Positions 9,460 through 44,908 of a stretch of 64,000 bases of DNA are shown one piece after another (positions within the stretch are counted from its first letter, which is position 1; each line of letters starts with the position of its first letter). The position numbers and the translations under genes are program-made. The DNA is from a virus (Duplodnaviria > Caudoviricetes), in the IMG/VR virus record IMGVR_UViG_3300027759_000001; one strand, 5' to 3'. The notes under the pieces were generated by a model that saw only the letters and a list, made by a program, of their open reading frames with translations, had not been told where the DNA came from and did not search any database.

Positions 9460-10626
9460 ATGTCAGAGGAACACAAATTATCACCATTCTTTAAAAGAAG
9501 GATTGACCATCATAAGTTTGAAAAAATGATGAGGAAAGGTATTATCTATATGTATCAAGAATCAAATTCCCTTGAAGAATTTAAATTTAAGTTAGTTAAA
9601 GCAACATTAGAAAATTATATTTATTATAAATATAATATTGATATTGAAGATTTACCTCACAATGATGTGGATAATTTTATTGATTATATGGTTGATACTT
9701 ATGAACCTGTACTTAAGATGTATTATTATAATGAAAGAAAAAATAGTGGTAATATAAATGAAAATTATAGTCCAGCAGGAAAAGAAATTACACCAAACAA
9801 AATTGTTATACATAAATCTAACCCAAAGTTTAGAGATATAATATCAAATGAAGGGTTAAAAGTAAGGGCTGGAGAATGTTATAAAATATATGCAGGTTAT
9901 GGTGAAAAATGTATACCAGCAATCTTTGCAACTAACTCAATAAATAAAAGAGCATCGTTTGATTCCACATATGATGACGATGTTTGGGAAATTGATACTG
10001 AAATGATACCTGATGTTAAGTGGTACAAAGATAAACACTATGAATCAAGATCAAAACATATAGTAACATTTGAAAACATACCTGCAGATGCAATAACATT
10101 AAAACATGAAGGTACAGGTAAGGATTGGGGATTAATGGAATCAACTAATGATGATAAGTTAAGTAAAGAAACAATGGTGGGTACATTTCAAGACATTGTT
10201 GAGGAAACGTTGGAGGAAATTAGAAATATTTGTGAAGTACTTGATATAGATACTTTCCCTGGTTGGTTGTCGTTTGATGGTTGTGATGTTGTTGATACTA
10301 TAGATAAAATAACTATTGTAAATATAGAAAGAAAAAAAGGTATAAGTAGAATTCCTATGTTTGAAGTTGATGTAAATCTGACGCTTAATGGTATTTGGGG
10401 AGGAATTGATTATGATGATTTTATTTATACTATTTCGGATAGAATAATTGGTAAATGGAAGATACATTTAATTTTTAATATTAAAGAACAGGAGAATAGT
10501 AATAAACGAGAAATGTGGGAATACGCAAGGACACTAAAAAATGCAAGAACTCAGGGATCCAAATTAAGGTTCTCTAAGTCTGCAGTCAAAGCAAACCCTA
10601 TGAGGTTTAGACCATACAATAGATGA
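9460..10626 (+). CDS. Multidomain protein: RR-domain + ADP-ribosyltransferase-like domain + acidic domain
   Basis: FFKRRI N-domain; HKS......I..EGL...IFAT...WEID...IP.DAI middle domain bounded by NINE and GLME. Confidence 0.55.
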   Translation: MSEEHKLSPFFKRRIDHHKFEKMMRKGIIYMYQESNSLEEFKFKLVKATLENYIYYKYNIDIEDLPHNDVDNFIDYMVDTYEPVLKMYYYNERKNSGNINENYSPAGKEITPNKIVIHKSNPKFRDIISNEGLKVRAGECYKIYAGYGEKCIPAIFATNSINKRASFDSTYDDDVWEIDTEMIPDVKWYKDKHYESRSKHIVTFENIPADAITLKHEGTGKDWGLMESTNDDKLSKETMVGTFQDIVEETLEEIRNICEVLDIDTFPGWLSFDGCDVVDTIDKITIVNIERKKGISRIPMFEVDVNLTLNGIWGGIDYDDFIYTISDRIIGKWKIHLIFNIKEQENSNKREMWEYARTLKNARTQGSKLRFSKSAVKANPMRFRPYNR

Positions 10627-11213
10627 AAGAGTTAATTAGAAAAATATTGAAGGAAGAAAGAATGAACCCAATCAAAAAGTTCTTCTTTAATCATTGGGAT
10701 GAAATAAGATCCGAAGGGGAATACCCAACTATTGATTATAGTTTAATTGGTAAACTTGGATTTAGAAAAAAAGCAATAGAAATACATGATTACTATCTTG
10801 AATACATTGGTGGTGAAGGTATTGGTGAAGAAAAATTATTAGATTTTTTGTCAAATCAAACATTTGATTCTAGTGAACTAAATTTCAGAAGACACTGGGA
10901 TGATGAAGATTTAAAATTTACGTTTAAGTTAAGTAATGTTCGTATTACTAATGATAGAGATGGGGATAAAAACATTGATGCGGATGCGGACATACTTGAG
11001 GGTTATATTAATATGACAGAGTATAATGATATAGAGGACGAACATTATCAAAACAGGTATGATATTTCAAGGGGTAATAACGAAATAGATGATATGTCCT
11101 CTTACTTTGAGGTTCAGGATGAACTTAGGGCAATAATTCAATCATTTATTATTGATTTTGCAATAAAATATGGTACAGAAATTACCGAAGCTGAGGTTGA
11201 ATTATTAAAATAA
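10623..11213 (+). CDS. LIRKILKEE-leader hypothetical protein, paralog of 11438..11992
   Basis: MKELIRKILKEERMNPIKKFFFNHWDE. Confidence 0.75.
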   Translation: MKELIRKILKEERMNPIKKFFFNHWDEIRSEGEYPTIDYSLIGKLGFRKKAIEIHDYYLEYIGGEGIGEEKLLDFLSNQTFDSSELNFRRHWDDEDLKFTFKLSNVRITNDRDGDKNIDADADILEGYINMTEYNDIEDEHYQNRYDISRGNNEIDDMSSYFEVQDELRAIIQSFIIDFAIKYGTEITEAEVELLK

Positions 11214-11236
11214 TTTGTATATTTGTATTATTAATC

Positions 11237-11377
11237 ATGTCTAACAATATACAAACATACAAAAAGATGAAAACTATAGAGATCACAATTCAAGAAATCT
11301 GGGCGGCAACAAGACCTATTGTTCAGAAGAGCAAGAAATCTTACACTCGTAAGAGAAAACATAAGAATGTGGATTAA
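11237..11377 (+). CDS. Small basic protein (alternative start 11267), weak ArfA-like motif
   Basis: Manual translation ...RPIVQKSKKSYTRKRKHKNVD; TATATTTG at 11218-11225; hairpin/T-run downstream. Confidence 0.55.
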   Translation: MSNNIQTYKKMKTIEITIQEIWAATRPIVQKSKKSYTRKRKHKNVD

Positions 11378-11437
11378 TTCCATTGACCTGATAAACTACG
11401 TCTCAGGTTTTGTTTTTTTATGATATTTATAATTTAT

Positions 11438-11992
11438 ATGAAAGATTTAATCAGAAAAATATTAAGGGAAGAAAAGGTTAATCCTGTAAAGAAATATTTC
11501 TTTGATCTTTGGGATGAACAGAAATCATTAGGTGATACACCAAGATACGATAAGAAGATGGTAAAGAGGCTTGGTTTTAGTACAAAACAAAGGGACATAA
11601 TGGGTTACTACAGAGAATATATGGGTAATGTTTATGACATGAGAAAAGATTTTGAAAGATATCTAACTAGTAAAAAAGAATTAACCACAGACGATATGGA
11701 AGATGAGGGTATTCATACAGGTGGATATGATTTTTCATTTAAATTTCCATATGTTTTTGTAAGAGAAGAAAATAATCAAGTTGAGATATTTGTTGATTTT
11801 GATATTACTCACGGTAGTGTTACTTTAATGACAAACGGTGAGGAATATGATTTAACTGATCACGAATCAATTGAGGATGATCTTTGGTTAGAACTTAGTT
11901 CAGAAATACAAGATATGATACAAGATTTTGTTGTGGCAACTGCGAACTCATTTGGTGTGGAATTTTATGACGTATATGTTCAATGGGGTTAA
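11438..11992 (+). CDS. LIRKILREE-leader hypothetical protein, paralog of 10623..11213 (start revised)
   Basis: MKDLIRKILREEKVNPVKKYFFDLWDE; TATTTAT upstream. Confidence 0.75.
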   Translation: MKDLIRKILREEKVNPVKKYFFDLWDEQKSLGDTPRYDKKMVKRLGFSTKQRDIMGYYREYMGNVYDMRKDFERYLTSKKELTTDDMEDEGIHTGGYDFSFKFPYVFVREENNQVEIFVDFDITHGSVTLMTNGEEYDLTDHESIEDDLWLELSSEIQDMIQDFVVATANSFGVEFYDVYVQWG

Positions 11993-12375
11993 GCGTACCA
12001 ATTAGTTGGAGTAACTTCATTAGTTAATGGATTGATATCAATCTTACAATTTTGTGGTAATAAAGAACTAAATGTTCCACGGAACATATTCACCAATTCA
12101 TCACACCATATCTTATCTACATGACATTTACAAATAACATCAATTCTTAACACATAATCTGTAGCATGAACTATCATCTCAAAATCGCTATATTCGTTAG
12201 AAGTAATACGCCTACCTTCATATCTTACCGTTGGTTTATCAAGTTTTTTAAGGTTGATAGATCTAACATTATATACCACACCGTTACTCATCTCAACTAA
12301 GAAATCCTGGAATAAATGAAATCGTCTCTCAAGGTTCATAATTACAATTATAATAACCACGTATAACATAATCAA
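11989..12375 (-). CDS. Hypothetical protein (start uncertain)
   Basis: 128 aa ORF filling the gap between + strand genes. Confidence 0.5.
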   Translation of the reverse strand: MIMLYVVIIIVIMNLERRFHLFQDFLVEMSNGVVYNVRSINLKKLDKPTVRYEGRRITSNEYSDFEMIVHATDYVLRIDVICKCHVDKIWCDELVNMFRGTFSSLLPQNCKIDINPLTNEVTPTNWYA

Positions 12376-12417
12376 ATACTATTCTGTTAAAACAATTTTT
12401 AAATATATTTATACTAT

Positions 12418-13110
12418 ATGAAAGAACGTTTTAATCCGTTTATTATTAGGAGACTGAAACAAATTGATGATCTTGTTGATGAGGTTTACCATGAGGTAAC
12501 ACCTTGTGATTACGATGAAGATAAGTTTTATATGTACTTCAGGGAGATAACTAATTGGGTGGTAGAAAACTTTGTAAATAATAACAATTTAGGAGACGAT
12601 GATATTGCAATTGATTTACATCATTTCATAAGAGAAAGATATTTTGATGAGTTTTTAGATTACTTTGATAATGCACAATTAAGTTGTAATGAATCTTTAA
12701 ATGAATCTGAGGATTTAGGTGATTTTAATTATAATAATAACGAAGAAAAGAAATTGGATAAAAAAAAAGTAACTCCTTCAGATTTAAAAAAGATTGAATT
12801 TATTGCCGATTATATTGAGATGGTAAGTGGTGAATATTTAAATAGGTCAAATTATAAACCTTGTTTTGTTTCAGTTCAAGCGGGACATAATAAATTTTAT
12901 ATAGTTGTAATTGTTACTGATAAAAAATATACTTTGGAAGGATACGAAAAATTCATTAATGAAAAATTACATAAAACATTCAAAGGGATGGACATTTATG
13001 TTTTATTAATTGATAATAAATATGACGATGGTGATAGTATTCCTAAAAGTTGTGATGATTATTTTAACCATATACCTAAACTTCCTAATACAATTACTAT
13101 AGAATTTTAA
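12418..13110 (+). CDS. RR-domain protein with second domain after NESLNES linker
   Basis: IIRRL...TPCDY...; internal LNE motifs. Confidence 0.7.
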   Translation: MKERFNPFIIRRLKQIDDLVDEVYHEVTPCDYDEDKFYMYFREITNWVVENFVNNNNLGDDDIAIDLHHFIRERYFDEFLDYFDNAQLSCNESLNESEDLGDFNYNNNEEKKLDKKKVTPSDLKKIEFIADYIEMVSGEYLNRSNYKPCFVSVQAGHNKFYIVVIVTDKKYTLEGYEKFINEKLHKTFKGMDIYVLLIDNKYDDGDSIPKSCDDYFNHIPKLPNTITIEF

Positions 13111-13113
13111 AAA

Positions 13114-13716
13114 ATGAGAGATATAATTAAAAAAGTATTAAAAGAAGAAGACGAAAGACAAAGATACATCAAATCTACAGATAGTCTTAGAAAAGTTATC
13201 ACATTATTTCTTAATGATTATATTGAGGATGGTAATAGAATAATAGGTAAAAAATCTCGTAACTATGGTAATCTTCGCGAGGATTGGTGTGTTAACGGTA
13301 AAGAAGTTATTACCGCAATATACTATTACGAAGACGGTAAATTTGATAATGGTACATTACTGATATCATGGGTATTAGTGAAAAAAATAATGAAAATTTT
13401 TAACACAAGAAAAAACTTTGTGATGAGTATAATAGAGGAATGGTATGAAGATACTATGATTCCAAAGTTTGAACAAATAGTTGGTGAAACAGGTTTTTAT
13501 TTTGATGATGTTGATCTATATGATGGAGACCACGATTGTATTCCTGAACCAGTTAAACCTGAAAATATTACAGATGAAGAAATGCTTGAGTTTATTGTAG
13601 ATAATACCGCTTATCGTAGAGATGAGGTTATTAATAAAATTGAATCAGGTGAAAGAGACCTTGAAGATTTTTATTTGGATATTGTTCATACTGTTGAAAA
13701 TAAAAAAAGATACTAG
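13114..13716 (+). CDS. IIKKVLKEE-leader hypothetical protein
   Basis: MRDIIKKVLKEED. Confidence 0.7.
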   Translation: MRDIIKKVLKEEDERQRYIKSTDSLRKVITLFLNDYIEDGNRIIGKKSRNYGNLREDWCVNGKEVITAIYYYEDGKFDNGTLLISWVLVKKIMKIFNTRKNFVMSIIEEWYEDTMIPKFEQIVGETGFYFDDVDLYDGDHDCIPEPVKPENITDEEMLEFIVDNTAYRRDEVINKIESGERDLEDFYLDIVHTVENKKRY

Positions 13717-13779
13717 TAAAGTTGATTATTAAATTGTTAAGTGATATGTTAAGTGTAATGTGAATTATATTTATTATAT

Positions 13780-14502
13780 ATGGATTTAAACAAATTAATA
13801 ACGATTGTAATACCTTGTAAGAATGAGAAGGATATTATATTAAAAACCTTAGATCTCTTAAATCATCAAAAAAACATACAGGGAGTAAAAGTAATTGTTT
13901 GTGATGCATCAAATGATGGTGTAACAAAACTTGACCTATTGAATAGATTAGAGTATCAGCACAGAACCGATATGTTTGATTTACATTTAATGGATGGAGG
14001 TCTTCCAGCAAAAGCAAGAAACAACGGATTTAAAATTGTAACAACACCATATGTGTTGTTTATGGACGCTGACGTATTTCTATTAGATCCAAAGGTACTA
14101 AAAAGATCAGTAGTAAGAATACATAGATACCATTTAGATCTAGTAACGGCAAAGTTCCGTTCGGACAATGGAAGATATAACTACGTATATAAGGTATTTG
14201 ATTTAATACAAACACTTTCCAAGTGGTCAACACCATTCTGTCTAGGTGGATATATGTTAGTTCGTTCAGAGACGTTTAAATCAATCGGAGGTTTTGATGA
14301 AGAGATTAAAGTAGCAGAAGATTATATGTTTTCAAAACAAATCAAACCAAAGAAATTTGGAAGAATAAACAATATTGTATATACACCACCAAGAAGATTT
14401 GAAAACAAAGGTGTAATGTATATGTTAAGACTTATGTTGTCATCATTTTTTAATAGTAACAATAAAGAATACTTTACAAACGACAAAGGTTATTGGAAAT
14501 GA
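13780..14502 (+). CDS. Glycosyltransferase family 2
   Basis: IVIPCKNE, VIVCD.S.DG, ARNNG, LFMDAD, IGGFDE...AED motifs. Confidence 0.9.
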   Translation: MDLNKLITIVIPCKNEKDIILKTLDLLNHQKNIQGVKVIVCDASNDGVTKLDLLNRLEYQHRTDMFDLHLMDGGLPAKARNNGFKIVTTPYVLFMDADVFLLDPKVLKRSVVRIHRYHLDLVTAKFRSDNGRYNYVYKVFDLIQTLSKWSTPFCLGGYMLVRSETFKSIGGFDEEIKVAEDYMFSKQIKPKKFGRINNIVYTPPRRFENKGVMYMLRLMLSSFFNSNNKEYFTNDKGYWK

Positions 14503-15212
14503 AAAAGTGGAGAACAATTATAATGAGTGATTTGCACTTAGGTGCAAGACAATCACAAACAAATAAGATATTAAAATTCTTAGAAGAGAATGAATCTGAA
14601 ACACTAATATTAAATGGTGATATTATAGATGGATGGGCATTAAAGGGTGGTGGTAAATGGAAAAAAGAATGTTCAAAGGTATTCAGACGTTTTATGAAAC
14701 GATCAGAAGAGGGAACAAAGGTAGTTTATATCAGAGGAAATCACGATGACTTTTTAAAACCATTTGTTCCGTTCTTATTAAACAACATAGAGATTGTTAG
14801 AAAATACACACACATTGGTGCGGACGGAAGAAGTTACTATTGTTTTCATGGGGATGTATTGGACTTTGTTATTATGAAAGTAAGATGGTTGGCGGTTCTT
14901 GGTGGATGGTCATATGATTTGATTATTAGATTAAATACAATATACAACTATATCAGGAGAAAGTTTAACTTACAATACCATTCCTTAGCAAATGATATAA
15001 AACAATCTGTAAAGGGAGCAATCAACTTTGTATCTGATTTTGAGGATAACGCAAAAGGTTTAACAAAACAAAAAGGATTTGATGTTGCGGTATGTGGGCA
15101 CATCCATCAACCTAAGTTAGATGTGGACTATATGAACTCAGGTGATTTCTGTGAGAACTCAACTTGTCTTGTTGAAGATTTTAATGGTAATTGGAAAATA
15201 TTAGAAATTTAA
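14499..15212 (+). CDS. plcP: LpxH-like metallophosphoesterase, PlcP-type phospholipase C candidate
   Basis: SDLHLG, GDIIDGW, GNHD, HGD, CGHIH motifs; RWLA.LG..Y and K..VK.A..F...FE segments typical of PlcP/LpxH2; ATGA-coupled to GT2. Confidence 0.7.
   Translation: MKKWRTIIMSDLHLGARQSQTNKILKFLEENESETLILNGDIIDGWALKGGGKWKKECSKVFRRFMKRSEEGTKVVYIRGNHDDFLKPFVPFLLNNIEIVRKYTHIGADGRSYYCFHGDVLDFVIMKVRWLAVLGGWSYDLIIRLNTIYNYIRRKFNLQYHSLANDIKQSVKGAINFVSDFEDNAKGLTKQKGFDVAVCGHIHQPKLDVDYMNSGDFCENSTCLVEDFNGNWKILEI
15108..15199 (+). repeat. 92-bp direct repeat, copy 1 (3' end of metallophosphoesterase gene)
   Basis: Matches 16445..16536 with 4 mismatches counted by eye. Confidence 0.95.
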
Positions 15213-15275
15213 TTTTTATTTGTAAAACCTATTTTCTTTGTGGATTTAAATCCCTATCATTAAAATAAAAATCAT

Positions 15276-15845: not shown

Positions 15846-15851
15846 AAAAAA

Positions 15852-16403: not shown

Positions 16404-16444
16404 TATAATTTTAGTAAAACAATAAAATATAAAATCCCTACTTA

Positions 16445-16536: not shown

Positions 16537-16561
16537 TATCACAGTAAAATAACAAAAAACT

Positions 16562-16593: not shown

Positions 16594-16597
16594 TTGT

Positions 16598-17112: not shown

Positions 17113-17958
17113 ATGAACTTACAAGAGAACATACAAAGAATTAGATCAATGATGGGTCTCAGGGAAGAAACTGAGATAAAAGATATTGATATGGATATTT
17201 CTTACAAATACGATCCAAAAGTAATTGAAATTCAAAAAGAATTAACCAATAAAGGATATTATATTGGAAAATTTGGTGATGATAAAGATGGTATTGACGG
17301 AATATATGGTCCAATTACAAAGGCGGCACATGAATCTTACAAAAAAGAAATACCACCAGAAGAGTTTGAATCAAAAAAAACTGAAATGGCTAAAGAGTAT
17401 GTAGATGAAGTGGATGTTAGTGATTTAAAAGAATTTAAATTTCATAAAATACCTGGAGGAACAAATAATTGGAGATCGGCTCAAATAACCGCAGATGTAT
17501 TACCTTCAGTAATTAAAAAATATGGTATAAAAAATATTATCAGAATGAGTGGTGATGACGAAAAACATAAAAGTGATCACCCTAAAACATCTTTAGATAC
17601 TGAACAAAAAATATGTGAAGAAAATGATTGTACTTACCATTTTATTAATGCTCATAGTGGATATAAATTAGGTAAAGGTTATACTAAATCAATACAAAAA
17701 ATTAATGACATTTTAAATCAAGGTAATACATTAATTCACTGTGCTCACGGTGCTGATAGAACTGGAGGAATGGTTGGTGCTTATCTTAAAAATAATGGTT
17801 ATATGACAGATAAAGATGAATTATGGAAATATACCACACAATTTAATAGTTGGCAAAGCTTAATTAATAATAATAATTTTTTTGGAAGTGGTTACGACAA
17901 ATATGCCGACGGATTTTACCCTATCTCAGAATTAAAAAATTCAAAATGGGTTAAATAA
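17113..17958 (+). CDS. MNLQE leader + peptidoglycan-binding domain + CX5R (tyrosine/dual-specificity) phosphatase
   Basis: IQKEL...GY...DGIDGIYGPITKAA; WRSAQ; IHCAHGADRTG P-loop. Confidence 0.8.
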   Translation: MNLQENIQRIRSMMGLREETEIKDIDMDISYKYDPKVIEIQKELTNKGYYIGKFGDDKDGIDGIYGPITKAAHESYKKEIPPEEFESKKTEMAKEYVDEVDVSDLKEFKFHKIPGGTNNWRSAQITADVLPSVIKKYGIKNIIRMSGDDEKHKSDHPKTSLDTEQKICEENDCTYHFINAHSGYKLGKGYTKSIQKINDILNQGNTLIHCAHGADRTGGMVGAYLKNNGYMTDKDELWKYTTQFNSWQSLINNNNFFGSGYDKYADGFYPISELKNSKWVK

Positions 17959-17968
17959 AAGATATAAT

Positions 17969-18451
17969 ATGACCTTACAAGAATCCATAAGAAAAGTATT
18001 AAGGGAAGAATCAATACAAGATAGTTTGTTTGACATGATTAAAACCGATGGATTTAAAAAGGCAGCAAAAGCCGTTGGTGGTGGTAAAAGATTAATGAAG
18101 ATATTAAATATTGATGATGAAGATCTTGATGAATTTATATACCAATATCTAACGGATAATCTACATCCTGATTATAATTGGGGACCCAAATTACACAATT
18201 TATATAAAGAAGATGTAAAAAAATATGGAATTTATGAATTTTCAATAAACGATAAGTATCGTTATGCGTATCTTGGTGAATGGGATGGTTATGATTACTT
18301 ATACACTTTAGTAATTAGTGAATGGGCGAATAACGAATTAACATCATTATTTGGTGATAAATGGATTCCTGTATTTAAAAGATGGTTTGAGTATAACTCA
18401 GGTCTTGAAGTTAGGAAAATAGATTTAAAAAATAGATATTTACATTTATGA
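17969..18451 (+). CDS. MNLQE-type leader hypothetical protein
   Basis: MTLQESIRKVLREESIQDSL..MIKTDG shared with next gene. Confidence 0.75.
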   Translation: MTLQESIRKVLREESIQDSLFDMIKTDGFKKAAKAVGGGKRLMKILNIDDEDLDEFIYQYLTDNLHPDYNWGPKLHNLYKEDVKKYGIYEFSINDKYRYAYLGEWDGYDYLYTLVISEWANNELTSLFGDKWIPVFKRWFEYNSGLEVRKIDLKNRYLHL

Positions 18452-19218
18452 ACCTACAAGAAACCATAAGAAAAGTATTATCTGAAGAAACATTAAAGGA
18501 TAGTTTAACTGATCTAATTAAGACTGATGGTATTGAACGTGCATCAAAAACGGTTGGTGGTTTAACAAGGTTGGCAAAAATATTAGAACTTGATCTTGAT
18601 GACGTAGATACTCAAGAAATGTTGGTTAAAAATTTTATTTACCATACTAAAATTGATCAGATTGATGTGTCATTTATTGAGGTTAGACCATCTGCTAGTG
18701 GAGGTAAGATTCTTACCATTAATTTAAAAACTGATGATACTGCGTCAAATGTAACAAGTTGGTATGTGCATGAGATATGTAATTATTTTAATGGGAGACA
18801 GGACTCACCAGAAGTGAATAAAAAATTATTTCCTTTTAAAGTAAAACCAGCATGGCATCCTGTTTTTGCTTTAAGTGGATGTAAAATATTTTTAGATGCT
18901 GAGATAGTTGATGATGAAGAAGATGATGAGGACTTAATGGAATCTAAACAGAAAGGACCAAGAGAAATACCAAATGAATTAAAACGAAGATCACAACGTT
19001 TAGATGATCTAATTGTAAAGGTAATAAAAGATATAGAAATATGTGAGTATAATACACCTGATGAGTTTATTTATGTGGTTGTTGACGAACTTATATGGGA
19101 GTTAAGAGATGACTACCATGGAGACCTTAATAAGTTAGATAAATTTGATGTGACACAATATGTGTATGACTTCAAATACCGTGAGTTAGAAGATTATTTT
19201 CTTGAGAGTTGTCAATAA
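18448..19218 (+). CDS. MNLQE-leader protein with C-terminal RR-domain after DLME linker
   Basis: MNLQETIRKVLSEE; ELKRRSQRLDDLI...ICEY. Confidence 0.75.
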   Translation: MNLQETIRKVLSEETLKDSLTDLIKTDGIERASKTVGGLTRLAKILELDLDDVDTQEMLVKNFIYHTKIDQIDVSFIEVRPSASGGKILTINLKTDDTASNVTSWYVHEICNYFNGRQDSPEVNKKLFPFKVKPAWHPVFALSGCKIFLDAEIVDDEEDDEDLMESKQKGPREIPNELKRRSQRLDDLIVKVIKDIEICEYNTPDEFIYVVVDELIWELRDDYHGDLNKLDKFDVTQYVYDFKYRELEDYFLESCQ

Positions 19219-19969: not shown

Positions 19970-19992
19970 ATTTATTAACATATTTATCTAAT

Positions 19993-20022
19993 ATGAACCT
20001 ACAAGATAACATTTTTAAATGA
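19993..20022 (+). other. Truncated MNLQE-leader mini-ORF (MNLQDNIFK*) overlapping the next start
   Basis: ATGAACCTACAAGATAACATTTTTAAATGA; TATTTAT 5 nt upstream; ATGA overlap with 20019. Confidence 0.75.
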
Positions 20023-32756: not shown

Positions 32757-33281
32757 ATGGGAAGAATTATAAGATTAACAGAATCAGATTTAACAAGATT
32801 AGTTAAACGAGTTATCATAGAAGAAAAGAAAAATAAAAAAAATATTAACGAAAGTATTTTATTAACTTTAGGTGGAATTGCGTTAGGTGGGGCGATTATA
32901 AAAAAGGCTTATGATTATTTAAGTAACCGTTCACTAATAAATAAAATGACCCCAACAGGTAATGTTAGAAAATCAACTGGTGGTGACCAAGAAGGTAACT
33001 TCTTTACTATGAAAGAGTATCGTGATAATGATACTGATGAAACGTATTGGGGTATTGATGTTACGGACGACACAAGAGATCAAGGTTTTAGAGATAGAAG
33101 AGTTTTATTATTCAAAGGAGACGACCCTAAAAGAATTGAAAGAATTTTAAAATTAGAAGTTGCTCACGATTATTCGGATCAGGCTAGAATGAGCGATGAT
33201 TATGAAAAAAGGTTTGGACAATTCAAAGCAGACAAAGTAATGCGTATGGGGGATAATACATATGATCATCAAAATTCATAA
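32757..33281 (+). CDS. RLTE-leader protein with hydrophobic helix after NINE
   Basis: MGRIIRLTESDLTRLVKRVIIEE...NINESILLTLGGIALGGAII. Confidence 0.8.
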   Translation: MGRIIRLTESDLTRLVKRVIIEEKKNKKNINESILLTLGGIALGGAIIKKAYDYLSNRSLINKMTPTGNVRKSTGGDQEGNFFTMKEYRDNDTDETYWGIDVTDDTRDQGFRDRRVLLFKGDDPKRIERILKLEVAHDYSDQARMSDDYEKRFGQFKADKVMRMGDNTYDHQNS

Positions 33282-35463: not shown

Positions 35464-35787
35464 ATGAAAATTATTATAACTGAAAGTCAAAAAGAATCAT
35501 TGGATTATTATCAATTATCTAACTGTATTAAGAGAAGGATAGATCTTGATGGGATTGACGATATTGTTGATGAGGCCATGGAAGAATTTGTTTCACTTCG
35601 TGATACTACTGAAGGTTTTATGGAGATGGTAATTAATTACACATATGACCGAGTTGATGAAGATTATGGTGTGGAAAAATGTTGGGGAGATCAATATTGG
35701 GATGAATTCTCCGCACCAATTAAACGATTTATATCCTCAAGATATGAGGCAAAACTGAAAGAATATTTTGAAAATCATTATAACTGA
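35464..35787 (+). CDS. MKIIITE leader + RR-domain (start revised)
   Basis: MKIIITESQ...IKRRID. Confidence 0.8.
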   Translation: MKIIITESQKESLDYYQLSNCIKRRIDLDGIDDIVDEAMEEFVSLRDTTEGFMEMVINYTYDRVDEDYGVEKCWGDQYWDEFSAPIKRFISSRYEAKLKEYFENHYN

Positions 35788-36106
35788 ATCACAATTTGTT
35801 GATCTTTTCTTTAAACGTAGGTTTGGTCGTATTGACCAACTTGTTGATGAAAAGATGCGTTACTATCCCCCTTGTGATTATACATATGATCCGTACTACG
35901 CTTTTTATGATTACTTTGGTGATGTTCGTAATGCAGTCATATACGAGATGATTGAAAAAGATATAAATTTACCTTGGTCAGAAGAAAATATGGTTAATAT
36001 TGATGAATTATCTGAAACTATGAATGAATGGATGTATGAAATATTCTTTGATAAAGTTAGAGAATATTATGATAAGGTTTTAGAGGATGAAGATTGTGAT
36101 GAGTAA
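35768..36106 (+). CDS. MKIIITE leader + RR-domain
   Basis: MKIIITESQFVDLFFKRRF...PPCDY. Confidence 0.8.
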   Translation: MKIIITESQFVDLFFKRRFGRIDQLVDEKMRYYPPCDYTYDPYYAFYDYFGDVRNAVIYEMIEKDINLPWSEENMVNIDELSETMNEWMYEIFFDKVREYYDKVLEDEDCDE

Positions 36107-38705: not shown

Positions 38706-38741
38706 TAAGGGGATTTTTTGTTTTATGGGATATTTATTGAT

Positions 38742-38972: not shown

Positions 38973-38973
38973 T

Positions 38974-39381: not shown

Positions 39382-39382
39382 A

Positions 39383-39688
39383 ATGAAAATAATAATAACA
39401 GAAGACCAAGATAATCAAATTCGTTCATTTGTACGACGACTTAGTATTGCGGATAAAATTATTTCCGAGTTGGATCCTAAAGACATTTGTAGAATATGGT
39501 CAAACACAGAAAAAGACTCGTTATATTTTGCCGATGACGTTATGTTGGGAATTGTATGGGAAATTAATCTAACACTTGGGATTAAAGATTCATATAAAAA
39601 TAAAGATCTGTATAAATTTTTTGAGGATTATGGTTATTACGATAAACTAAAAAACTTTTTTCATAAATCATTTGAGTCATGCGAATAA
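39383..39688 (+). CDS. MKIIITE leader + RR-domain
   Basis: MKIIITEDQ...FVRRL...PKDIC. Confidence 0.8.
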   Translation: MKIIITEDQDNQIRSFVRRLSIADKIISELDPKDICRIWSNTEKDSLYFADDVMLGIVWEINLTLGIKDSYKNKDLYKFFEDYGYYDKLKNFFHKSFESCE

Positions 39689-40026
39689 TCATAACTGAAT
39701 CTCAAAGTAAAATTCTATGGTTACGTAGGCGATTGAATGACCCTGAAATTAATGAATTATTAAAAGATATTGTTATTGAGGGTTTTGATTATACCGATCC
39801 TTGTAACTACGAAACTTATAATAGTTTTGAAACTAACATTGTAAATGAATCCGCAATAACATTTATTAATTCATATAGCGAACTTAGTGGTGAAGAACAA
39901 TTTATTTCAGATAACGAACTTGAGAAGTTTGTTGTTAAGGTAATTGTTAGTAAACATCGTCCCCTAATTGAACGAGAATATAGGGATCGTTATTGTGATG
40001 AAGATGATGATGAATCGGATTATTAA
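39679..40026 (+). CDS. MKIIITE-type leader + RR-domain
   Basis: MRIIITESQSKILWLRRRL...DPCNY. Confidence 0.8.
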   Translation: MRIIITESQSKILWLRRRLNDPEINELLKDIVIEGFDYTDPCNYETYNSFETNIVNESAITFINSYSELSGEEQFISDNELEKFVVKVIVSKHRPLIEREYRDRYCDEDDDESDY

Positions 40027-40039
40027 CTATTTATAAAAT

Positions 40040-40369
40040 ATGAAAATCATTATCACCGAAAACCAAAACTATGTTCTTAGACGATTACAACAATTTATTG
40101 AAATTGTTGAGGATCATATTGAAGGGTATGAACTAAATGAAGATGGGTCATGGTGGTGCCGTCATTTTAATGCGGATACTTTTTTTGAAAATCTAATGAA
40201 TAATTCAATTGAAGAATTTGAAAGTAATAATTGGAATTTCTTCCACGATACTTCCGAAAAAGGTGGTTCGGATATGGACATCAGTATATTAAATAAAATT
40301 ATTGAACAAAACTACGGTAATTATATTAGAAATCTTTTTGTTCGTAAGTGTAATAAATCTCGTTGGTAA
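40040..40369 (+). CDS. MKIIITE leader + RR-domain
   Basis: MKIIITENQNYVLRRL. Confidence 0.8.
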   Translation: MKIIITENQNYVLRRLQQFIEIVEDHIEGYELNEDGSWWCRHFNADTFFENLMNNSIEEFESNNWNFFHDTSEKGGSDMDISILNKIIEQNYGNYIRNLFVRKCNKSRW

Positions 40370-40382
40370 TATATTTATTAAC

Positions 40383-40568
40383 ATGAGAAGATTAAACGAA
40401 AATGATATGAGCACACTTATTAAAAAGGTGGTTGCCAAGTTAAAGGGGGTCTCTGACGACCAGATCAAATATAATATGAAACATGACCTACCTTGGGATT
40501 GGAATGGATCTAAGGAAGGTTTCTACGAAAAGATGGAACCTAAACGTAAAAATTCCGGATCTAATTAA
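40383..40568 (+). CDS. RLNE-leader small protein (start revised)
   Basis: MRRLNENDMSTLIKKVV; TATTTAT 4 nt upstream. Confidence 0.7.
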   Translation: MRRLNENDMSTLIKKVVAKLKGVSDDQIKYNMKHDLPWDWNGSKEGFYEKMEPKRKNSGSN

Positions 40569-40580
40569 TATTTATAACGT

Positions 40581-41264
40581 ATGAAAAAAATTGTAAAACT
40601 TACGGAATCTGAATTAAAAAAAGTTCTCAAAAAAATCATAAATGAAAGTTTACTACTTGAGTCATCTGCTGATTCATTAAATAGAGGTCAATTAGAATCA
40701 ACTTATCGTAAATATAATGATTTGGGTTCAGATGGGACTTTTAATGAAATCTTTAAAAATGAAAGAGAACAAGGATTAACACCATTTACTGAATTTGTCA
40801 ATGGATGTGCAACTAAGGTATCATTAGCAATTAACTCCGCAGGTGGAACTCTTAAACCGAGTTTTATCGTTACCAATGGACCATTTAAAGGTAAAAATGT
40901 TAACACATCCGCAACCGGTCTTAAAAATGAATTATTGAAAAAATGGGGAACTCCTGACGTTAAAATTGATAAGGTAACAAGTTTAGAGGAAGTACAACAG
41001 AAAATTGGACCAGGAAGAAGTGGTGTTTTTATATGTACCCCATGTGGTTTTGGGAGTGGAGCTAGTGGTCATGCAACAATATGGAGTTGGTGGAAGAATG
41101 GTAAAAAAGGTGGTCCGTTAGACGATAGTAGTTATCCTGAAGAAAATGGTGGTACAATATATTTTTGGGGAGTTGGTGGAACAAATGAGGAAGTAGCAAC
41201 AAAGTGTGGATATAATTCTTGGAGTGAATACGAAAAGGCAAATTTTAAATGTAAAACAAATTAA
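40581..41264 (+). CDS. Leader + Tae4-like (NlpC/P60 superfamily) peptidoglycan amidase
   Basis: NGCATKVSLAIN, WGTPD, SGVFI...ASGHATIW, GTIYFW match Tae4 Cys/His motifs. Confidence 0.75.
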   Translation: MKKIVKLTESELKKVLKKIINESLLLESSADSLNRGQLESTYRKYNDLGSDGTFNEIFKNEREQGLTPFTEFVNGCATKVSLAINSAGGTLKPSFIVTNGPFKGKNVNTSATGLKNELLKKWGTPDVKIDKVTSLEEVQQKIGPGRSGVFICTPCGFGSGASGHATIWSWWKNGKKGGPLDDSSYPEENGGTIYFWGVGGTNEEVATKCGYNSWSEYEKANFKCKTN

Positions 41265-41266
41265 AA

Positions 41267-41698
41267 ATGAAAAAAATTGTAAGACTTACAGAAAAAGACA
41301 TTAATATGTTAGTAAAAAAAATAATCAGAGAATCAGATCCTGGTGATGGGAAAAGGGATGATTTTTCAGAATATGAAGGAAGAACCGATATCTATGCCGA
41401 TAACGCAGGGGTTGAAAACAAAGAGGATCCTGAACAAAACCTAACAGAAAGAAATTTAACAAGACTTGTTAAACGTGTAATGAATGAAGACAAAGACAAT
41501 AAAAAAATGGATCTTAAAAGTGATCTTAGAAACATAATTAATGATGAGTATTCTGAAATTGAACCTTCCGATCTTGTTGAAGTTTTGGAAGAACTGTTAC
41601 ATTATGCCAAAAATGATGTTTTTAGAAGTAAAAAACCAAATAAAGGATATATCACTAAAGATGAGGTGAAAAAAAACTTTAAAAAAAACTATAATTAA
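41267..41698 (+). CDS. RLTE-leader protein with a second internal leader copy
   Basis: MKKIVRLTEKD...IRE and internal LTERNLTRLVKRVMNE. Confidence 0.8.
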   Translation: MKKIVRLTEKDINMLVKKIIRESDPGDGKRDDFSEYEGRTDIYADNAGVENKEDPEQNLTERNLTRLVKRVMNEDKDNKKMDLKSDLRNIINDEYSEIEPSDLVEVLEELLHYAKNDVFRSKKPNKGYITKDEVKKNFKKNYN

Positions 41699-41718
41699 TA
41701 TTTAAAAATAATAATACG

Positions 41719-41744
41719 ACCCCACCTCATTAGTGGGGTTTTTT
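41719..41744 (+). terminator. Repeated terminator, variant copy
   Basis: ACCCCACCTCATTAGTGGGGTTTTTT. Confidence 0.8.
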
Positions 41745-41767
41745 GTTTTATATGGTATTTATAATAT

Positions 41768-42076
41768 ATGAAAATCATAATAACAGAAAATCAAAATAAA
41801 TTAACAAGACGATACTTCCAAATAAAAAATGAGGTTCATAATCGTATGGATGGATCCAATCCTTGTTATTATAGGGATTACCATGATTTTGATAGGTACA
41901 AAAGAGATGTTTTAAAGGCGGCAATTGATGAGGTTACAGATGAGTCAGATCTGGAAATCGACCCAAGATCATGGATAAATTTTAGAAATGAACTTTCTTA
42001 TATGTTAAATGATGAAATGAAGGAGTTTTACGATAATGAGATTAACAAAAGGTGTCCAGAATATTTTGGAGAGTAA
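41768..42076 (+). CDS. MKIIITE leader + RR-domain
   Basis: MKIIITENQNKLTRRY...NPCYY. Confidence 0.8.
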   Translation: MKIIITENQNKLTRRYFQIKNEVHNRMDGSNPCYYRDYHDFDRYKRDVLKAAIDEVTDESDLEIDPRSWINFRNELSYMLNDEMKEFYDNEINKRCPEYFGE

Positions 42077-42078
42077 AT

Positions 42079-42390
42079 ATGGTAATAATTCTAACAGAAT
42101 CACAGTATAATTACATAAAAAGGAGGTATCTACACATACTTCCAATCTTTGAACGAGAACTTGAAGATCAGGTTCCAGCATGGTATAACAATAAATTTGG
42201 AAAAAACGAAGGGTTTGAACGTTATTACGACACCGTAAAAGATTCGGTTGTAGAATTTATTATGTACGATATCCCAAATTTTTATGATCTTGATGAGGAA
42301 AATGAGGTTGAAATCAGTAAAAAACTATCAAAAGAGTTTGATTTAATCTTTTTTGATGAGACTAAAAGATATTATGAAGAAAACAGGTAA
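42079..42390 (+). CDS. IILTE leader + RR-domain (start revised)
   Basis: MVIILTESQYNYIKRRY. Confidence 0.75.
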   Translation: MVIILTESQYNYIKRRYLHILPIFERELEDQVPAWYNNKFGKNEGFERYYDTVKDSVVEFIMYDIPNFYDLDEENEVEISKKLSKEFDLIFFDETKRYYEENR

Positions 42391-42462
42391 AATACAGGAG
42401 TAATGATTGTCCTCGTTCAAAAGACGGGGGTAATTTTTGTCCTTATGTTATATTTATCTTAT

Positions 42463-42714
42463 ATGAAGATTGTTATAACAGAATCTCAACATAAATTTAT
42501 TAGAAGATACCAAGAACTCAAAGATTGGGTTAGGTCTGACTATAACTATTTATTGGATCAGGGTAAATCACCATATGATGCAAGAGAGATTACAATAGAT
42601 CATTCTGCAATGACGTACTTGGATGACCCTGACACACAACTTGAGTGGACAGATAAAAATTTGAATATGTTAAGACGATTCATTGAGAATAATTTTGAGG
42701 ATTTAATTAGTTAA
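42463..42714 (+). CDS. MKIVITE leader + RR-domain (start revised)
   Basis: MKIVITESQHKFIRRY; TATTTAT 5 nt upstream. Confidence 0.8.
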   Translation: MKIVITESQHKFIRRYQELKDWVRSDYNYLLDQGKSPYDAREITIDHSAMTYLDDPDTQLEWTDKNLNMLRRFIENNFEDLIS

Positions 42715-42715
42715 T

Positions 42716-43000
42716 ATGAAAATAATAATAACAGAAAACCAAAAAGAAAAGTTAATGATCATAAGGAGAATACCTGAGATTAAAAGTTTAATACAAAACT
42801 TATACTCTTATCAGTATCCTTGTGACTTTGATTCATTGGGCGAATTTATGAGAGCAATTGATGTTGATTTGGCTGAGTCTATTTATCTTCTTGATTGGCA
42901 CGAATCTGTTGAATATGAAACCCTATGGGATATGTCTATGGAGTTTTTTCATAGTGACATAGTAGAACACTATAACCATAACTGCAAAGAAGAATATTAA
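42716..43000 (+). CDS. MKIIITE leader + RR-domain
   Basis: MKIIITENQ...IIRRI...YPCDF. Confidence 0.8.
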   Translation: MKIIITENQKEKLMIIRRIPEIKSLIQNLYSYQYPCDFDSLGEFMRAIDVDLAESIYLLDWHESVEYETLWDMSMEFFHSDIVEHYNHNCKEEY

Positions 43001-43001
43001 T

Positions 43002-43352
43002 ATGAAAATAATAATAACAGAAACACAGAACAAAACTCTTCTTAAAAGATTAAGAAGGATACAGGAAGTTAGAGATACTATAGAGTTTCAAATGGAAGTT
43101 CAAGACCCTTGTAATTTTGAAGATGGTGATGAGTATGCCGATTTTTGTATTGGTGAAGGGATTAGTTTCTTTTATGGTGATGAAAACTATGAGAGAGAGG
43201 ATGATACCTTTGCCGATGAGGATGAGAATGAAGATAGTGGTAGAGAAGAGATTGAAAAATTAATGTCTGAGGAGTACTACGGTGAGTTAGTTTCATTGTG
43301 GGAAGAATATAGTGAAAATTGTGACGATGATGATGACGATTTTGAATATTAA
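43002..43352 (+). CDS. MKIIITE leader + RR-domain
   Basis: MKIIITETQ...LRRI...DPCNF. Confidence 0.8.
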   Translation: MKIIITETQNKTLLKRLRRIQEVRDTIEFQMEVQDPCNFEDGDEYADFCIGEGISFFYGDENYEREDDTFADEDENEDSGREEIEKLMSEEYYGELVSLWEEYSENCDDDDDDFEY

Positions 43353-43362
43353 ATAAGTTAAG

Positions 43363-43998
43363 ATGAAAATAATATTAACTGAAAACCAAATTGAGTTTAT
43401 ACGTAGGTATAAAAAAATCAAAGATCTTGTTGATGAAGGAATTGATGTGTTAAGTCAAGAAACAGATATATGTGATTATGATTTTTTTGGGTTTTTAAAT
43501 GAAATTTGTTGGCAAGTAAGTGATAAAATGGAACATTTAAATTTACCTACCAATACTGTTGGAATGATTGAAAACGTTCACAAGTGGGTTAAGGATAATT
43601 TTGATACTTACATATTAGAAAAATTTGAAATAATCATGTACGACTCTAATTGTAATGAAAGATTTGATGATGTGGATGACGAAGAATATAACCTACAGGA
43701 GTCAGATGACGATGACGATGATAAATATTATTCTACATTAAATAGTTCACTTATTAGGAGACATAATGTTATTATGGAAGAGATGGATCATCATATAACA
43801 AATAATATTTCTTGTGATGAATATCCGGACGACGTTGATGAATTTAAAGATTATATACTTGAAAAAGTCACAGATGAAATGATGTTTAACCATAATGTAA
43901 ATAAGTGGGAATGGCATGATGTCTATTTATCATTAGAGAATATAATTGGTAAACAGATAAAAAAGACTTTTAAATCTTGGATTAGAAAACATTGTTAA
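43363..43998 (+). CDS. MKIILTE leader + two RR-domains joined by YNLQES linker
   Basis: FIRRY...ICDY; LIRRH...SCDEY. Confidence 0.8.
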   Translation: MKIILTENQIEFIRRYKKIKDLVDEGIDVLSQETDICDYDFFGFLNEICWQVSDKMEHLNLPTNTVGMIENVHKWVKDNFDTYILEKFEIIMYDSNCNERFDDVDDEEYNLQESDDDDDDKYYSTLNSSLIRRHNVIMEEMDHHITNNISCDEYPDDVDEFKDYILEKVTDEMMFNHNVNKWEWHDVYLSLENIIGKQIKKTFKSWIRKHC

Positions 43999-43999
43999 G

Positions 44000-44908
44000 A
44001 TGAAAGTAATAATAACAGAAAATCAAAATCGCCTATTACGCAGAGTTCCAGAAATTGAACATTTAATTGGTCCTATGATGGATTTAGTGTATGAATATAT
44101 GAAAAATGGTAATCCGTCCCCACTTAATATGTCCTACTACGATACGTTTATAGATTTTACTACATTAAACATTACAAAAGAAATAGTAAATCGTACAAAT
44201 TTTCGGGGGGATGACAAAATAGAATTAGAAACACAAATACAACGGTTTATAGAAACCGAATATATGGATATTATTAGAGAATATTTTTATTCTCGTATGG
44301 TTAAAAATATTAATGAATCTGATCACGAAATAAAATTTAAACGAAGATACCAAGAAATTGAGGATGGTATTTCGGATTTTATCTTAACCCATACGTTAAC
44401 TGTTATGGACACCTTTGGTAATTTTTTAACTGAAATTTGTTGGAATGTTGCAAGTCAGGTTGTTGGTAAAATGAATATACCTGAAGATGATTATGTTATG
44501 TATAGAAATCAATTGATACGTTTCATTAAAAATAATTTCTACGAGGAATTAAAAGAGTTTTGGGATAGAAATTATTATTGGAGGGACAATAAAAACATCA
44601 ATGAATCTTATGATAAAAGAATGTTACAAAGACGATACCAATACATTAGTGAGTTTATTGATAGAGCTCTTTCACGTTATGATGTTTGTTTATATACTGA
44701 TGTAATTGATTTTGTGGATCGTGTGTTGGATTACACCGCTGATAATTTATATGAATCCTTATTTAAATTAGAATGGGACGACAATCATAATGAATATTAT
44801 CAAGATATATATGATTTGATTTCTGAAAACTTTGTAGATAGAATCCATGAATTCTATGAGGACAATAAACATTTTTGTATAGATGAGGACGGTAATTGGA
44901 TTCATTAG
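44000..44908 (+). CDS. MKVIITE leader + three RR-domains joined by KNINES linkers
   Basis: LLRRV; KNINES..FKRRY; KNINES..LQRRY. Confidence 0.8.
   Translation: MKVIITENQNRLLRRVPEIEHLIGPMMDLVYEYMKNGNPSPLNMSYYDTFIDFTTLNITKEIVNRTNFRGDDKIELETQIQRFIETEYMDIIREYFYSRMVKNINESDHEIKFKRRYQEIEDGISDFILTHTLTVMDTFGNFLTEICWNVASQVVGKMNIPEDDYVMYRNQLIRFIKNNFYEELKEFWDRNYYWRDNKNINESYDKRMLQRRYQYISEFIDRALSRYDVCLYTDVIDFVDRVLDYTADNLYESLFKLEWDDNHNEYYQDIYDLISENFVDRIHEFYEDNKHFCIDEDGNWIH

What the first reader, a model, noticed from the sequence alone, without database searches (positions are those of the whole stretch)
9460..44908. Polyprotein-like architecture: (I/L)xE linkers sit at internal domain boundaries
Seen: 44000 has three RR-domains separated by KNINES twice; 43363 has two joined by YNLQES (DNA tataacctacaggag, resembling the MNLQE leader DNA); 9460 has NINE before and GLME after its ART-like domain; 18448 has DLME before its RR-domain; 12418 has NESLNES; 41267 contains a complete second leader (LTERNLTRLVKRVMNE). 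Inference: neighbouring cassettes fused in frame, and the retained motif lets a head protease release individual domains.
Basis: partly seen in the sequence, partly recalled or inferred. Interest (0 to 1): 0.72.

Follow-up and report, generated by a model that had tools for sequence, protein, structure and literature searches.

The report
Phage cargo polyproteins with cleavage-like joints
In an uncultured T4-like giant phage, small cargo genes are repeatedly fused and split at short flexible joints carrying the motif its head protease probably cuts, so several proteins may be loaded as one chain and then cut apart, though no cutting has been shown.

Summary

A leader-free profile of the "RR-domain" and two AlphaFold models put the domain borders on those motifs. 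The only internal low-confidence stretches between domains are NINENY and GLMESTNDDK in 9460, and the two NINES in 44000.

In 60 inter-domain linkers from 52 metagenomic tandem RR proteins:
- [IL]xE occurs in 92% (34-42% in controls).
- [ILVM]xE[SN] occurs in 78% (7-9% in controls).
- Glu beats Asp 51:2, against 33:48 inside domains.

"Fused cassettes" is directly supported. Close relatives encode the same modules alone, each behind its own leader, or in other combinations, always broken at these joints.

"Cut by the head protease" remains inference. Related complete genomes encode a T4 gp21-type protease. Their capsid protein has LINE|A where T4 has its FLTE|A cleavage-site motif. Their core and scaffold proteins are enriched in the same motif. 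There is no cultured relative and no proteomics.

Points against a simple model: some joints are plain read-through relics, two do not fit the motif, and 9460 and 12418 have no N-terminal leader.

The scan had already noted the leaders elsewhere in this same genome, not on other DNA.

Verdict: a new variant of T4-type head cargo processing, with interest 0.62.

The parts
44000..44908 (+). Three-module RR-domain protein (302 aa) with an N-terminal MKVIITE leader
   Evidence: HMM envelopes 13-107/114-204/210-300. AF2 gives three helical domains. The L001 ortholog has 80% identity.
44309..44317 (+). Joint 1 of 44000: INE of KNINE|S
   Evidence: pLDDT<50 at aa 103-107. In L040 this position is the N-terminal MKVIITE leader of a d2+d3 gene.
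44597..44605 (+). Joint 2 of 44000: INE of KNINE|S
   Evidence: pLDDT<50 at aa 193-203. The L041 relative ends with a true stop just before it. It differs from joint 1 at two synonymous sites.
43363..43998 (+). Two-module RR-domain protein (211 aa)
   Evidence: HMM envelopes 13-109 and 131-211.
43687..43701 (+). Joint YNLQE(S) of 43363: an MNLQE leader start with ATG changed to TAT
   Evidence: DNA compared with the starts of genes 20704 and 21065. NLQES is kept in the L001 and L040 orthologs while the following acidic stretch differs.
9460..10626 (+). Three-module protein: RR-domain, Tpt1/KptA-like ART-fold domain, alpha/beta C domain, then a disordered tail
   Evidence: AF2 domains 1-97, 104-222 and 234-343. 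Foldseek hits to Tpt1/KptA with E 1e-4.
9754..9762 (+). Joint INE of NINE|N, between the RR and ART-like modules
   Evidence: pLDDT<50 at 98-103. It is the best-supported homology breakpoint. Stand-alone homologs start the domain at this point, directly after a leader.
10132..10140 (+). Joint LME of GLME|S, between the ART-like and C modules
   Evidence: pLDDT<50 at 224-233. Stand-alone homologs end at GTGK just before it. Orthologs read LWRE|S or GIME|S.
18448..19218 (+). Two-module protein: MNLQE leader, N domain, then RR-domain; joint DLME|S at nt 18934-18942
   Evidence: In the near-identical relative L021 a further module is fused in front through GADLQE|S. In L016 a third module is fused behind through GMME|S.
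12418..13110 (+). RR-domain (aa 10-94), joint NESLNE|S (nt 12697-12705), then a second domain
   Evidence: The four relatives found are all full length, so no split form was seen.
41441..41488 (+). Internal second B-type leader (LTE...VMNE) in 41267
   Evidence: In the L001 ortholog the helix part is replaced, but LTE and VNE are kept.
32844..32852 (+). KNINE|S at the end of an N-terminal B leader in gene 32757, directly before a hydrophobic stretch
   Evidence: It shows the same hexapeptide closing a leader as well as joining domains.

Best explanation
The window belongs to an uncultured freshwater T4-like jumbo phage whose late genes include dozens of small leader-plus-cargo modules.

Shown:
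- These modules are gained, lost, fused and split among close relatives.
- The break points fall on short joints that AlphaFold models with low confidence, suggesting flexibility.
- The joints descend from the N-terminal leaders (MKIIITE|S/N, MNLQE|S).
- Even when the rest of the leader is gone, the joints keep a core: hydrophobic (I/L), any residue (often N/Q), Glu, then Ser/Asn.

Inferred:
- This core is the recognition site of the phage's gp21-type prohead protease.
- A fused protein would therefore enter the prohead as one chain and be cut after each Glu into single domains.
- That would make fusion and fission nearly neutral, which would explain why the domains occur in almost any order and number.
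For: Module shuffling at the joints
- The 9460 family shows it across, and the 44000 family across.

The core persists without the leader helix
- 47 of 60 linkers lack the helix, and 36 of those 47 keep [ILVM]xE[SN].
- NINES is kept in nearly all orthologous 44000-type linkers seen, while the flanks vary.

Glu is specifically required
- In linkers [ILVM]xE[SN] outnumbers [ILVM]xD[SN] 51:2, against 33:48 inside domains.
- In T4, Asp at that position of the capsid targeting sequence blocks processing (PMC9026906).

The joints are the low-confidence stretches between confidently folded domains.

The conservation is at the protein level
- Codons vary across joints: ATT/ATC/ATA, AAT/AAC, TCT/TCA/AGT.

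A protease with matching predicted specificity exists in the lineage
- Related complete genomes encode Peptidase_S77 and a gp23-type capsid protein.
- That capsid protein reads SFLINE|A, resembling the T4 site GSFLTE|A, although it lies 14 rather than 30 residues before the aligned VRR block (PMC9958956).
- All four motif hits in the capsid protein lie within its first 60 residues.
- The core protein has 8 sites against 1.7 expected, and the scaffold 7-10 against 3-5.

Co-expression with head genes is plausible
- The promoter-like TATTTAT stands upstream of the head genes and of the operons holding these genes. 36 of 61 copies fall in the 5.5% of the window just upstream of gene starts.

T4 Alt begins MELITE, which resembles MKIIITE.
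Against: - No cleavage and no packaging have been observed.
- No cultured relative exists, so there are no proteomics.
- Much of the enrichment follows simply from descent, because the joints are former leaders. Some are whole leaders that still keep the Met.
- The joints RQME|S and RQME|G (L005, L014) have Gln, not a hydrophobic residue, at P3.
- 9460, 12418 and 31623 have no N-terminal leader, so how they would reach the prohead is unclear.
- The motif is not depleted inside folded domains.
- In SPN3US, 13 of 14 mapped head-protease sites only remove N-terminal propeptides, so releasing several functional domains has no precedent (PMC10052503).
- The window's own genome could not be searched for the protease.
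Confidence: 0.5

Rival explanations
1. The joints are retained leaders that serve a purpose other than cleavage. Each module would need its own short tag, for example to dock on a scaffold, chaperone or partner, or to cap its first helix. The multi-domain proteins would then stay intact.
For: Many joints are complete leaders (13 of 60, some with the Met). The distance from Glu to the RR motif peaks at 8 residues, close to the roughly 6-10 seen after MKIIITE in single-domain genes. AF2 starts a short helix at or just after the Glu in each 44000 unit. Descent alone predicts the motif at joints.
Against: The same core precedes unrelated folds: the ART-like domain, domains A, B and C of L006/L007, and a membrane-like segment in 32757. 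It therefore is not part of one domain's structure. The Glu-to-RR distance ranges from 4 to 18. The helix part is usually lost while the hydrophobic-x-Glu-Ser core stays. The core lies in the lowest-confidence residues of both models.
Confidence: 0.27
2. The joints are cut, but not in the prohead. Another phage or host Glu-specific protease would process cytoplasmic polyproteins, or processing would happen after injection.
For: Several polyproteins have no N-terminal leader (9460, 12418). Iyer et al. propose post-injection processing for polyvalent proteins (PMC5512222).
Against: No other protease was recognised in the parts I scanned. The motif matches the sites predicted in the capsid, core and scaffold proteins of the same lineage.
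Confidence: 0.13
3. The motif marks a DNA-level recombination joint, an N-glycosylation sequon (N-E-S), or is just a by-product of AT-rich composition, with no role as a peptide signal.
For: The genome has 30% G+C, so I, L, N, E and K are common. The joints do coincide with recombination break points. NINES and LNES contain N-x-S.
Against: Composition-matched shuffles and in-domain controls give 7-9% against 78% observed. Codons differ between joints. P2 is Asn in only 21 of 58 sites, and LQES, LMES and ITES have no sequon. The strict Glu-over-Asp preference has no explanation at the DNA level.
Confidence: 0.05

Closest known systems
Phage T4 capsid targeting sequences and gp21 processing of internal proteins IPI-III and Alt
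   Same: A gp21-family protease is present in the lineage. Short N-terminal leaders end in hydrophobic-x-Glu. The cargo is diverse and includes an ART-fold enzyme, as with T4 Alt. T4 propeptides run from 7 to 65 residues, Asp in place of Glu blocks processing, and the targeting sequence is proposed as an evolutionary way to load varied proteins (PMC9026906, PMC3012670). T4 Alt starts MELITE.
   Different: T4 cuts one N-terminal peptide from each cargo protein. Here up to six unrelated modules sit in one chain with the motif at every joint. The cargo repertoire is far larger, and nothing has been tested experimentally.
Polyvalent proteins of phages and conjugative elements (Iyer, Burroughs, Anand, de Souza, Aravind 2017; PMC5512222)
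   Same: Several unrelated effector-type domains, including ART-fold ones, sit in one polypeptide of a phage, with solo versions of the same domains elsewhere. They are predicted to be packaged and delivered with the DNA, and release of individual domains has been proposed.
   Different: In those proteins the proposed processing is by an embedded metallopeptidase domain, and no junction motif is described. Here no peptidase domain was found in the proteins. The joints instead carry a linear motif for a protease acting in trans, and the modules are small, about 90-130 aa.
Head maturation in giant phages phiKZ and SPN3US (gp175, gp245)
   Same: Diverged gp21 homologs cut after Glu in a three-residue motif, with Ser preferred at P1'. 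Many head and ejection proteins are substrates, and long propeptides are cut at several sites (PMC10052503, PMC9026906).
   Different: Their motif is A/S/G-x-E, not I/L-x-E. In SPN3US, 13 of the 14 mapped sites remove N-terminal propeptides that are discarded. Release of several functional domains from one chain has not been reported.
MuF-domain polymorphic toxins of temperate phages
   Same: A constant head-targeting part is joined to interchangeable toxin or effector domains. This comparison rests on my own knowledge and the mention in PMC5512222.
   Different: Pfam found no MuF domain in the proteins scanned. The address here is a 7-25 residue leader, not a structural domain.

Membership tests
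T4-type CTS / gp21 substrate system | The genome encodes a gp21-family (Peptidase_S77) prohead protease beside a gp22-like scaffold and a gp23-type capsid protein | tested here: met
   Met in two related complete genomes that share the cargo families: G001 (304 kb) and G002 (321 kb). The window's own genome is not held; earlier scan notes call it T4-like.
T4-type CTS / gp21 substrate system | Candidate sites are hydrophobic-x-Glu with a small or polar P1', and Asp is not tolerated | tested here: met
   The linker logo reads P3 I/L in 48 of 58 sites, P1 E, and P1' S/N in 47 of 58. The E:D ratio is 51:2. The capsid protein's predicted site is LINE|A.
T4-type CTS / gp21 substrate system | An N-terminal targeting peptide is present on the packaged precursor | tested here: inconclusive
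   44000, 43363, 18448 and 41267 start with a leader. 9460 and 12418 do not.
T4-type CTS / gp21 substrate system | The protein is found in the virion, cut at the site | not testable with these tools
   There is no cultured relative. The closest capsid protein in GenBank phages has 41-43% identity (an uncultured phage, a Microcystis phage and Flavobacterium phage immuto), and the cargo proteins give no hit.
Polyvalent proteins (PMC5512222) | Two or more unrelated effector-type domains in one phage polypeptide, with solo versions elsewhere | tested here: met
   9460 has an RR domain, a Tpt1-like ART fold and an alpha/beta domain. L009 has six modules.
Polyvalent proteins (PMC5512222) | An embedded processing peptidase (MPTase or similar) is frequently present | tested here: not met
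   Pfam finds no peptidase domain in 9460, 12418, 18448, 41267, 43363 or 44000. This feature is common in the family but not obligatory.
MuF polymorphic toxins | N-terminal MuF (Phage_Mu_F) domain | tested here: not met
   No such Pfam hit in the 20 proteins scanned.
ADP-ribosyltransferase superfamily (middle domain of 9460) | ART fold | tested here: met
   Foldseek probability 1.0 and E 1e-4 to 1e-3 to Tpt1/KptA tRNA 2'-phosphotransferases over about 117 residues. Pfam gives only a sub-threshold DUF5820 hit. Catalytic residues and activity were not examined.

The most novel reading that the evidence does not exclude
A T4-type prohead protease would double as a polyprotein-processing enzyme. 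Any cargo module joined to another through a hydrophobic-x-Glu-Ser joint would be carried into the head and set free there. Cargo genes could then fuse, split and reshuffle without cost. This would be a phage counterpart of RNA-virus polyproteins and a natural multi-cargo delivery format.
Probability: 0.42. Interest if true: 0.78.

Novelty: new variant of a known kind. Interest (0 to 1): 0.62.

Why it matters
If the joints are cut, this lineage shows how a phage can enlarge and reshuffle its injected-protein arsenal. One address and one protease would serve any number of domains, and gene fusion or fission would cost nothing.

That would explain the very fast turnover of these gene arrays among 80-98% identical genomes.

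It would also give a compact natural design rule for loading several proteins into T4-type capsids: a leader, then modules separated by a six-residue joint.

Even if the joints are not cut, the data define three things with no annotation in Pfam or among GenBank phages:
- a large family of modular proteins;
- a roughly 90-residue helical RR-domain found in 282 cluster representatives;
- a Tpt1-like ART-fold cargo domain.

Tried and rejected
- Megablast and blastn of the window against GenBank phages gave no match. tblastn of 9460, 17969 and 44000 against the same collection also gave none.
- An exact 44-mer from the window was not found in IMG/VR, and no whole genome is held. The protease and capsid protein therefore had to be read from related genomes.
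- A first, unfiltered breakpoint analysis gave only 25% against 15%. Many "breakpoints" were alternative start codons or ragged ends of alignments. I then used only well-supported breakpoints.
- Foldseek of the 44000 model against the PDB gave nothing meaningful, so the RR-domain fold stays unassigned.
- N-glycosylation sequon reading (N-E-S): rejected because most joints have no Asn at P2.
- Recent gene conversion as the cause of the two identical KNINES: unlikely, because the two copies differ at two synonymous sites and the flanking domains share only about 25% identity.
- Depletion of the motif inside domains, which constant exposure to the protease might produce, was not seen.
- I ran no complex prediction of the protease with a joint peptide.
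Full report
**Context**

The window has 30% G+C and is packed with small genes, mostly on the + strand. Pfam shows type IX secretion sorting domains, peptidoglycan-binding domains, SLT, Tae4 and phosphatase domains, which points to a Bacteroidota host. Earlier notes of this scan describe the genome as a roughly 290-kb uncultured freshwater T4-like jumbo phage, and they had already flagged shared N-terminal leaders in other windows of the same genome. No whole genome is held, the window has no match in GenBank phages, and an exact 44-mer is absent from IMG/VR.

**The observation**

- 44000 has KNINES twice.
- 43363 has YNLQES.
- 9460 has NINE|N and GLME|S around its middle domain.
- 18448 has DLME|S.
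- 12418 has NESLNES.
- 41267 has a second B-type leader at aa 59-74.

The DNA quoted for 43363 is also correct. It differs from the ATGAACCTACAGGAG start of gene 20704 only in the first codon, TAT in place of ATG. That joint is therefore a former start of an MNLQE-type gene.

**Domain borders defined without the motif**

I aligned eight single-domain paralogs, removed the leader and built an HMM. It finds three RR-domains in 44000, two in 43363, a C-terminal one in 18448 and an N-terminal one in 12418. The envelopes end or begin within a few residues of the motifs.

AlphaFold2 models agree with this.
- 9460 folds into three domains: 1-97, 104-222 and 234-343. The only low-confidence stretches (pLDDT below 50) between them are 98-103 (NINENY) and 224-233 (GLMESTNDDK). 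Other dips lie inside the middle domain and in the disordered C-terminal tail.
- 44000 folds into three helical domains. Its low-confidence stretches are 1-5, 103-107 (NINES), 193-203 (ending in KNINES) and a short dip at 132-134.
- The middle domain of 9460 matches the NAD-binding ART-fold lobe of Tpt1/KptA tRNA 2'-phosphotransferases (Foldseek probability 1.0, E about 1e-4). "ART-like" is therefore fair.
- The RR-domain has no PDB match.

**Is it more than chance?**

Bare (I/L)xE is frequent here, about 1.8 per 100 residues, so its mere presence near a border means little. The fuller pattern is not frequent.
- In the window's proteins, [ILVM][NQM]E[SNQ] occurs 35 times against 6.3+-2.5 in within-protein shuffles. 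Nearly all copies lie at the ends of leaders or at internal borders.
- For an independent sample, I searched the leader-free RR profile (A1) against 1.84 billion cluster representatives. This gave 282 hits at E<=0.001, and 65 of the best 150 have two to four domains.
- In 60 inter-domain linkers from 52 of those proteins, [IL]xE is present in 92%. Same-length windows inside domains give 42% and shuffled proteins 34%.
- [ILVM]xE[SN] is present in 78% of the linkers, against 9% and 7% in the same controls. [ILVM][NQ]E[SN] is present in 50%, against 0-1%.
- The logo reads P4 N, P3 I/L, P2 N/Q, P1 E, P1' S.

**Fusion and fission**

They do.

The 9460 family:
- L008, L010 and L011 lack the middle domain exactly between the two motifs and read NINE|SNDDK.
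- L012 has the middle domain as its own gene, with a short leader ending in E directly before YSPAGKE.
- Most of the 65 metagenomic homologs of 69-221 aa cover nearly the whole domain. The roughly 20 I read start with a short N-terminal leader, and most place an MNLQE-, MKELIR- or similar leader directly before YSPAGKE. The stand-alone ones end at GTGK, just before the GLME joint of the window.
- L006, L007, L009 and L013 string three to six modules together. Almost every junction reads hydrophobic-x-E followed by S or N; the L013 junction carries two extra residues after the Glu.
- L005 fuses the 9460 ortholog to the ortholog of the next gene, 10623.
- L016 fuses an 18448-like protein to the N-domain of 9460.
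- L018 has that N-domain alone behind MNLQE.

The 18448 family: in a contig 87-98% identical to the window, the 18448 ortholog carries an extra module in front, joined by GADLQE|S where the window has MNLQE|T.

The 44000 family:
- L040 (83% identity) encodes d2+d3, starting MKVIITENQ where the window has VKNINESDH.
- L041 (81% identity) encodes d1+d2, with a true stop just before the second joint.
- P0069 has four domains. Its last one is the ortholog of the window's stand-alone gene 42403, joined by DPEIVTE|S.

Across the related loci, 81% of 26 well-supported homology breakpoints lie next to [ILVM]xE, against 37+-10% of random positions.

**Origin of the joints**

The joints descend from N-terminal leaders.
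- Thirteen of the 60 linkers still hold a whole MNLQE-type leader, two of them with the Met.
- Others are MKIIITES without the MK, such as PEIVTES and PEFVSES.
- Others are reduced to NINES or LNES.

A large part of the enrichment is therefore inherited and is not by itself evidence of function.

**Evidence for continuing constraint on the core**

- 47 of the 60 linkers have lost the helical part of the leader, yet 36 of these 47 keep [ILVM]xE[SN].
- NINES is kept in nearly all orthologous 44000-type linkers I saw, while the residues on both sides differ.
- The two KNINES of 44000 differ at two synonymous sites, and the joints overall use several codons for I, N and S. The conservation is therefore at the protein level.
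- In the L001 ortholog of 41267, the helix of the internal leader has been replaced, but LTE and VNE remain.
- Glu is strongly preferred over Asp. [ILVM]xE[SN] outnumbers [ILVM]xD[SN] 51:2 in linkers, against 33:48 inside domains.

**Is a fitting protease present?**

Two related complete IMG/VR genomes that share these cargo families (304 kb, and 321 kb with terminal repeats) encode a Peptidase_S77 (T4 gp21) homolog. It sits between a portal gene and an acidic scaffold gene, followed by a gp23-type capsid gene.
- The capsid protein reads ...SFLINE|ATSE... This resembles the T4 site ...GSFLTE|AEIGG..., where 65 residues are removed (PMC9958956). The spacing to the conserved VRR block differs: 14 residues here against 30 in T4.
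- All four [ILVM]xE[SNAG] hits of the 620-residue capsid protein lie within its first 60 residues.
- The small core protein has 8 hits against about 1.7 expected.
- The scaffold has 7-10 hits against 3-5 expected.
- This is the pattern known for gp21 substrates in T4, where gp22, gp67 and gp68 are chopped up and short propeptides are removed from IPI-III and Alt (PMC9958956, PMC9026906).
- T4 Alt begins MELITE, which resembles the MKIIITE leader.
- A promoter-like TATTTAT stands 10-25 nt upstream of the core, protease and scaffold genes in the relatives, and upstream of the operons that hold 9460, 12418, 17113-18448, 40581-41267 and 41768-44908. 36 of 61 plus-strand copies fall in the 5.5% of the window just upstream of gene starts. 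That suggests these genes are expressed together with the head genes.

**What remains inference**

No cleavage and no packaging have been observed. The closest capsid protein in GenBank phages has only 41-43% identity (an uncultured phage, a Microcystis phage and Flavobacterium phage immuto), and the cargo families are absent from GenBank phages.

Points against a simple model:
- RQME|S and RQME|G joints have Gln at P3.
- 9460, 12418 and 31623 have no leader.
- The motif is not depleted inside domains.
- In SPN3US, 13 of 14 mapped head-protease sites only remove N-terminal propeptides (PMC10052503).

I therefore put the cleavage model at about one half. The main rival, at about a quarter, is that the leader core is kept at each module for some other reason and the proteins stay whole.

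**Comparison with known systems**

The system works like an expanded form of T4 capsid targeting and gp21 processing. In architecture it resembles the "polyvalent proteins" of Iyer et al. (PMC5512222). It differs from T4 in placing the motif between several modules of one chain. It differs from polyvalent proteins in having no embedded peptidase and in carrying a defined junction motif. I rate it a new variant of a known kind.

Noticed in passing
window 35464-36106: Two RR-domain modules lie next to each other in different frames with a 20-nt overlap. The second has the usual KIIITESQ leader, but a TTG (Leu) stands where the ATG should be, directly after an in-frame stop. It may be a TTG-started gene or a half-way state between split and fused.
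   Followed up: partly
window 19975-20018, upstream of gene 20019: A decapitated leader, ATGAACCTACAAGATAACATTTTTAA, encodes MNLQDNIF followed by a stop. It has Asp in place of the usual Glu and stands just before a gene that has no leader. It looks like a leader fossil.
   Followed up: no
window 9763-10140 (aa 102-227 of 9460): The middle domain has the ART fold of Tpt1/KptA tRNA 2'-phosphotransferases and forms a metagenomic family of at least 65 clusters with no Pfam annotation. It is a candidate NAD-dependent enzyme, possibly acting on RNA or DNA ends.
   Followed up: partly
window-wide; examples at 9447, 12406, 17102, 40569, 41756: TATTTAT lies 10-25 nt upstream of many gene starts, and upstream of the head protease, scaffold and core genes in related genomes. 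It is probably this lineage's late-promoter element, comparable to TATAAATA in T4.
   Followed up: partly
window 17113-17958 and 40581-41264: One protein combines a peptidoglycan-binding domain with a dual-specificity phosphatase behind an MNLQE leader. Another is a Tae4-type (T6SS amidase effector) protein behind a B-type leader. Both are enzyme cargo of the kind expected for injected proteins.
   Followed up: no
L001 3598-4026 compared with window 41267-41698: In the 80-90% identical relative, about 30 nt coding the helix of the internal second leader are replaced by unrelated sequence, while the flanks, including LTE and VNE, are conserved.
   Followed up: partly
window 966-2966 and 45921-47564: The two large paralogous proteins also carry internal LINE|Q, FINE|Q, VIME|S and FINE|S around aa 97-128.
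   Followed up: no
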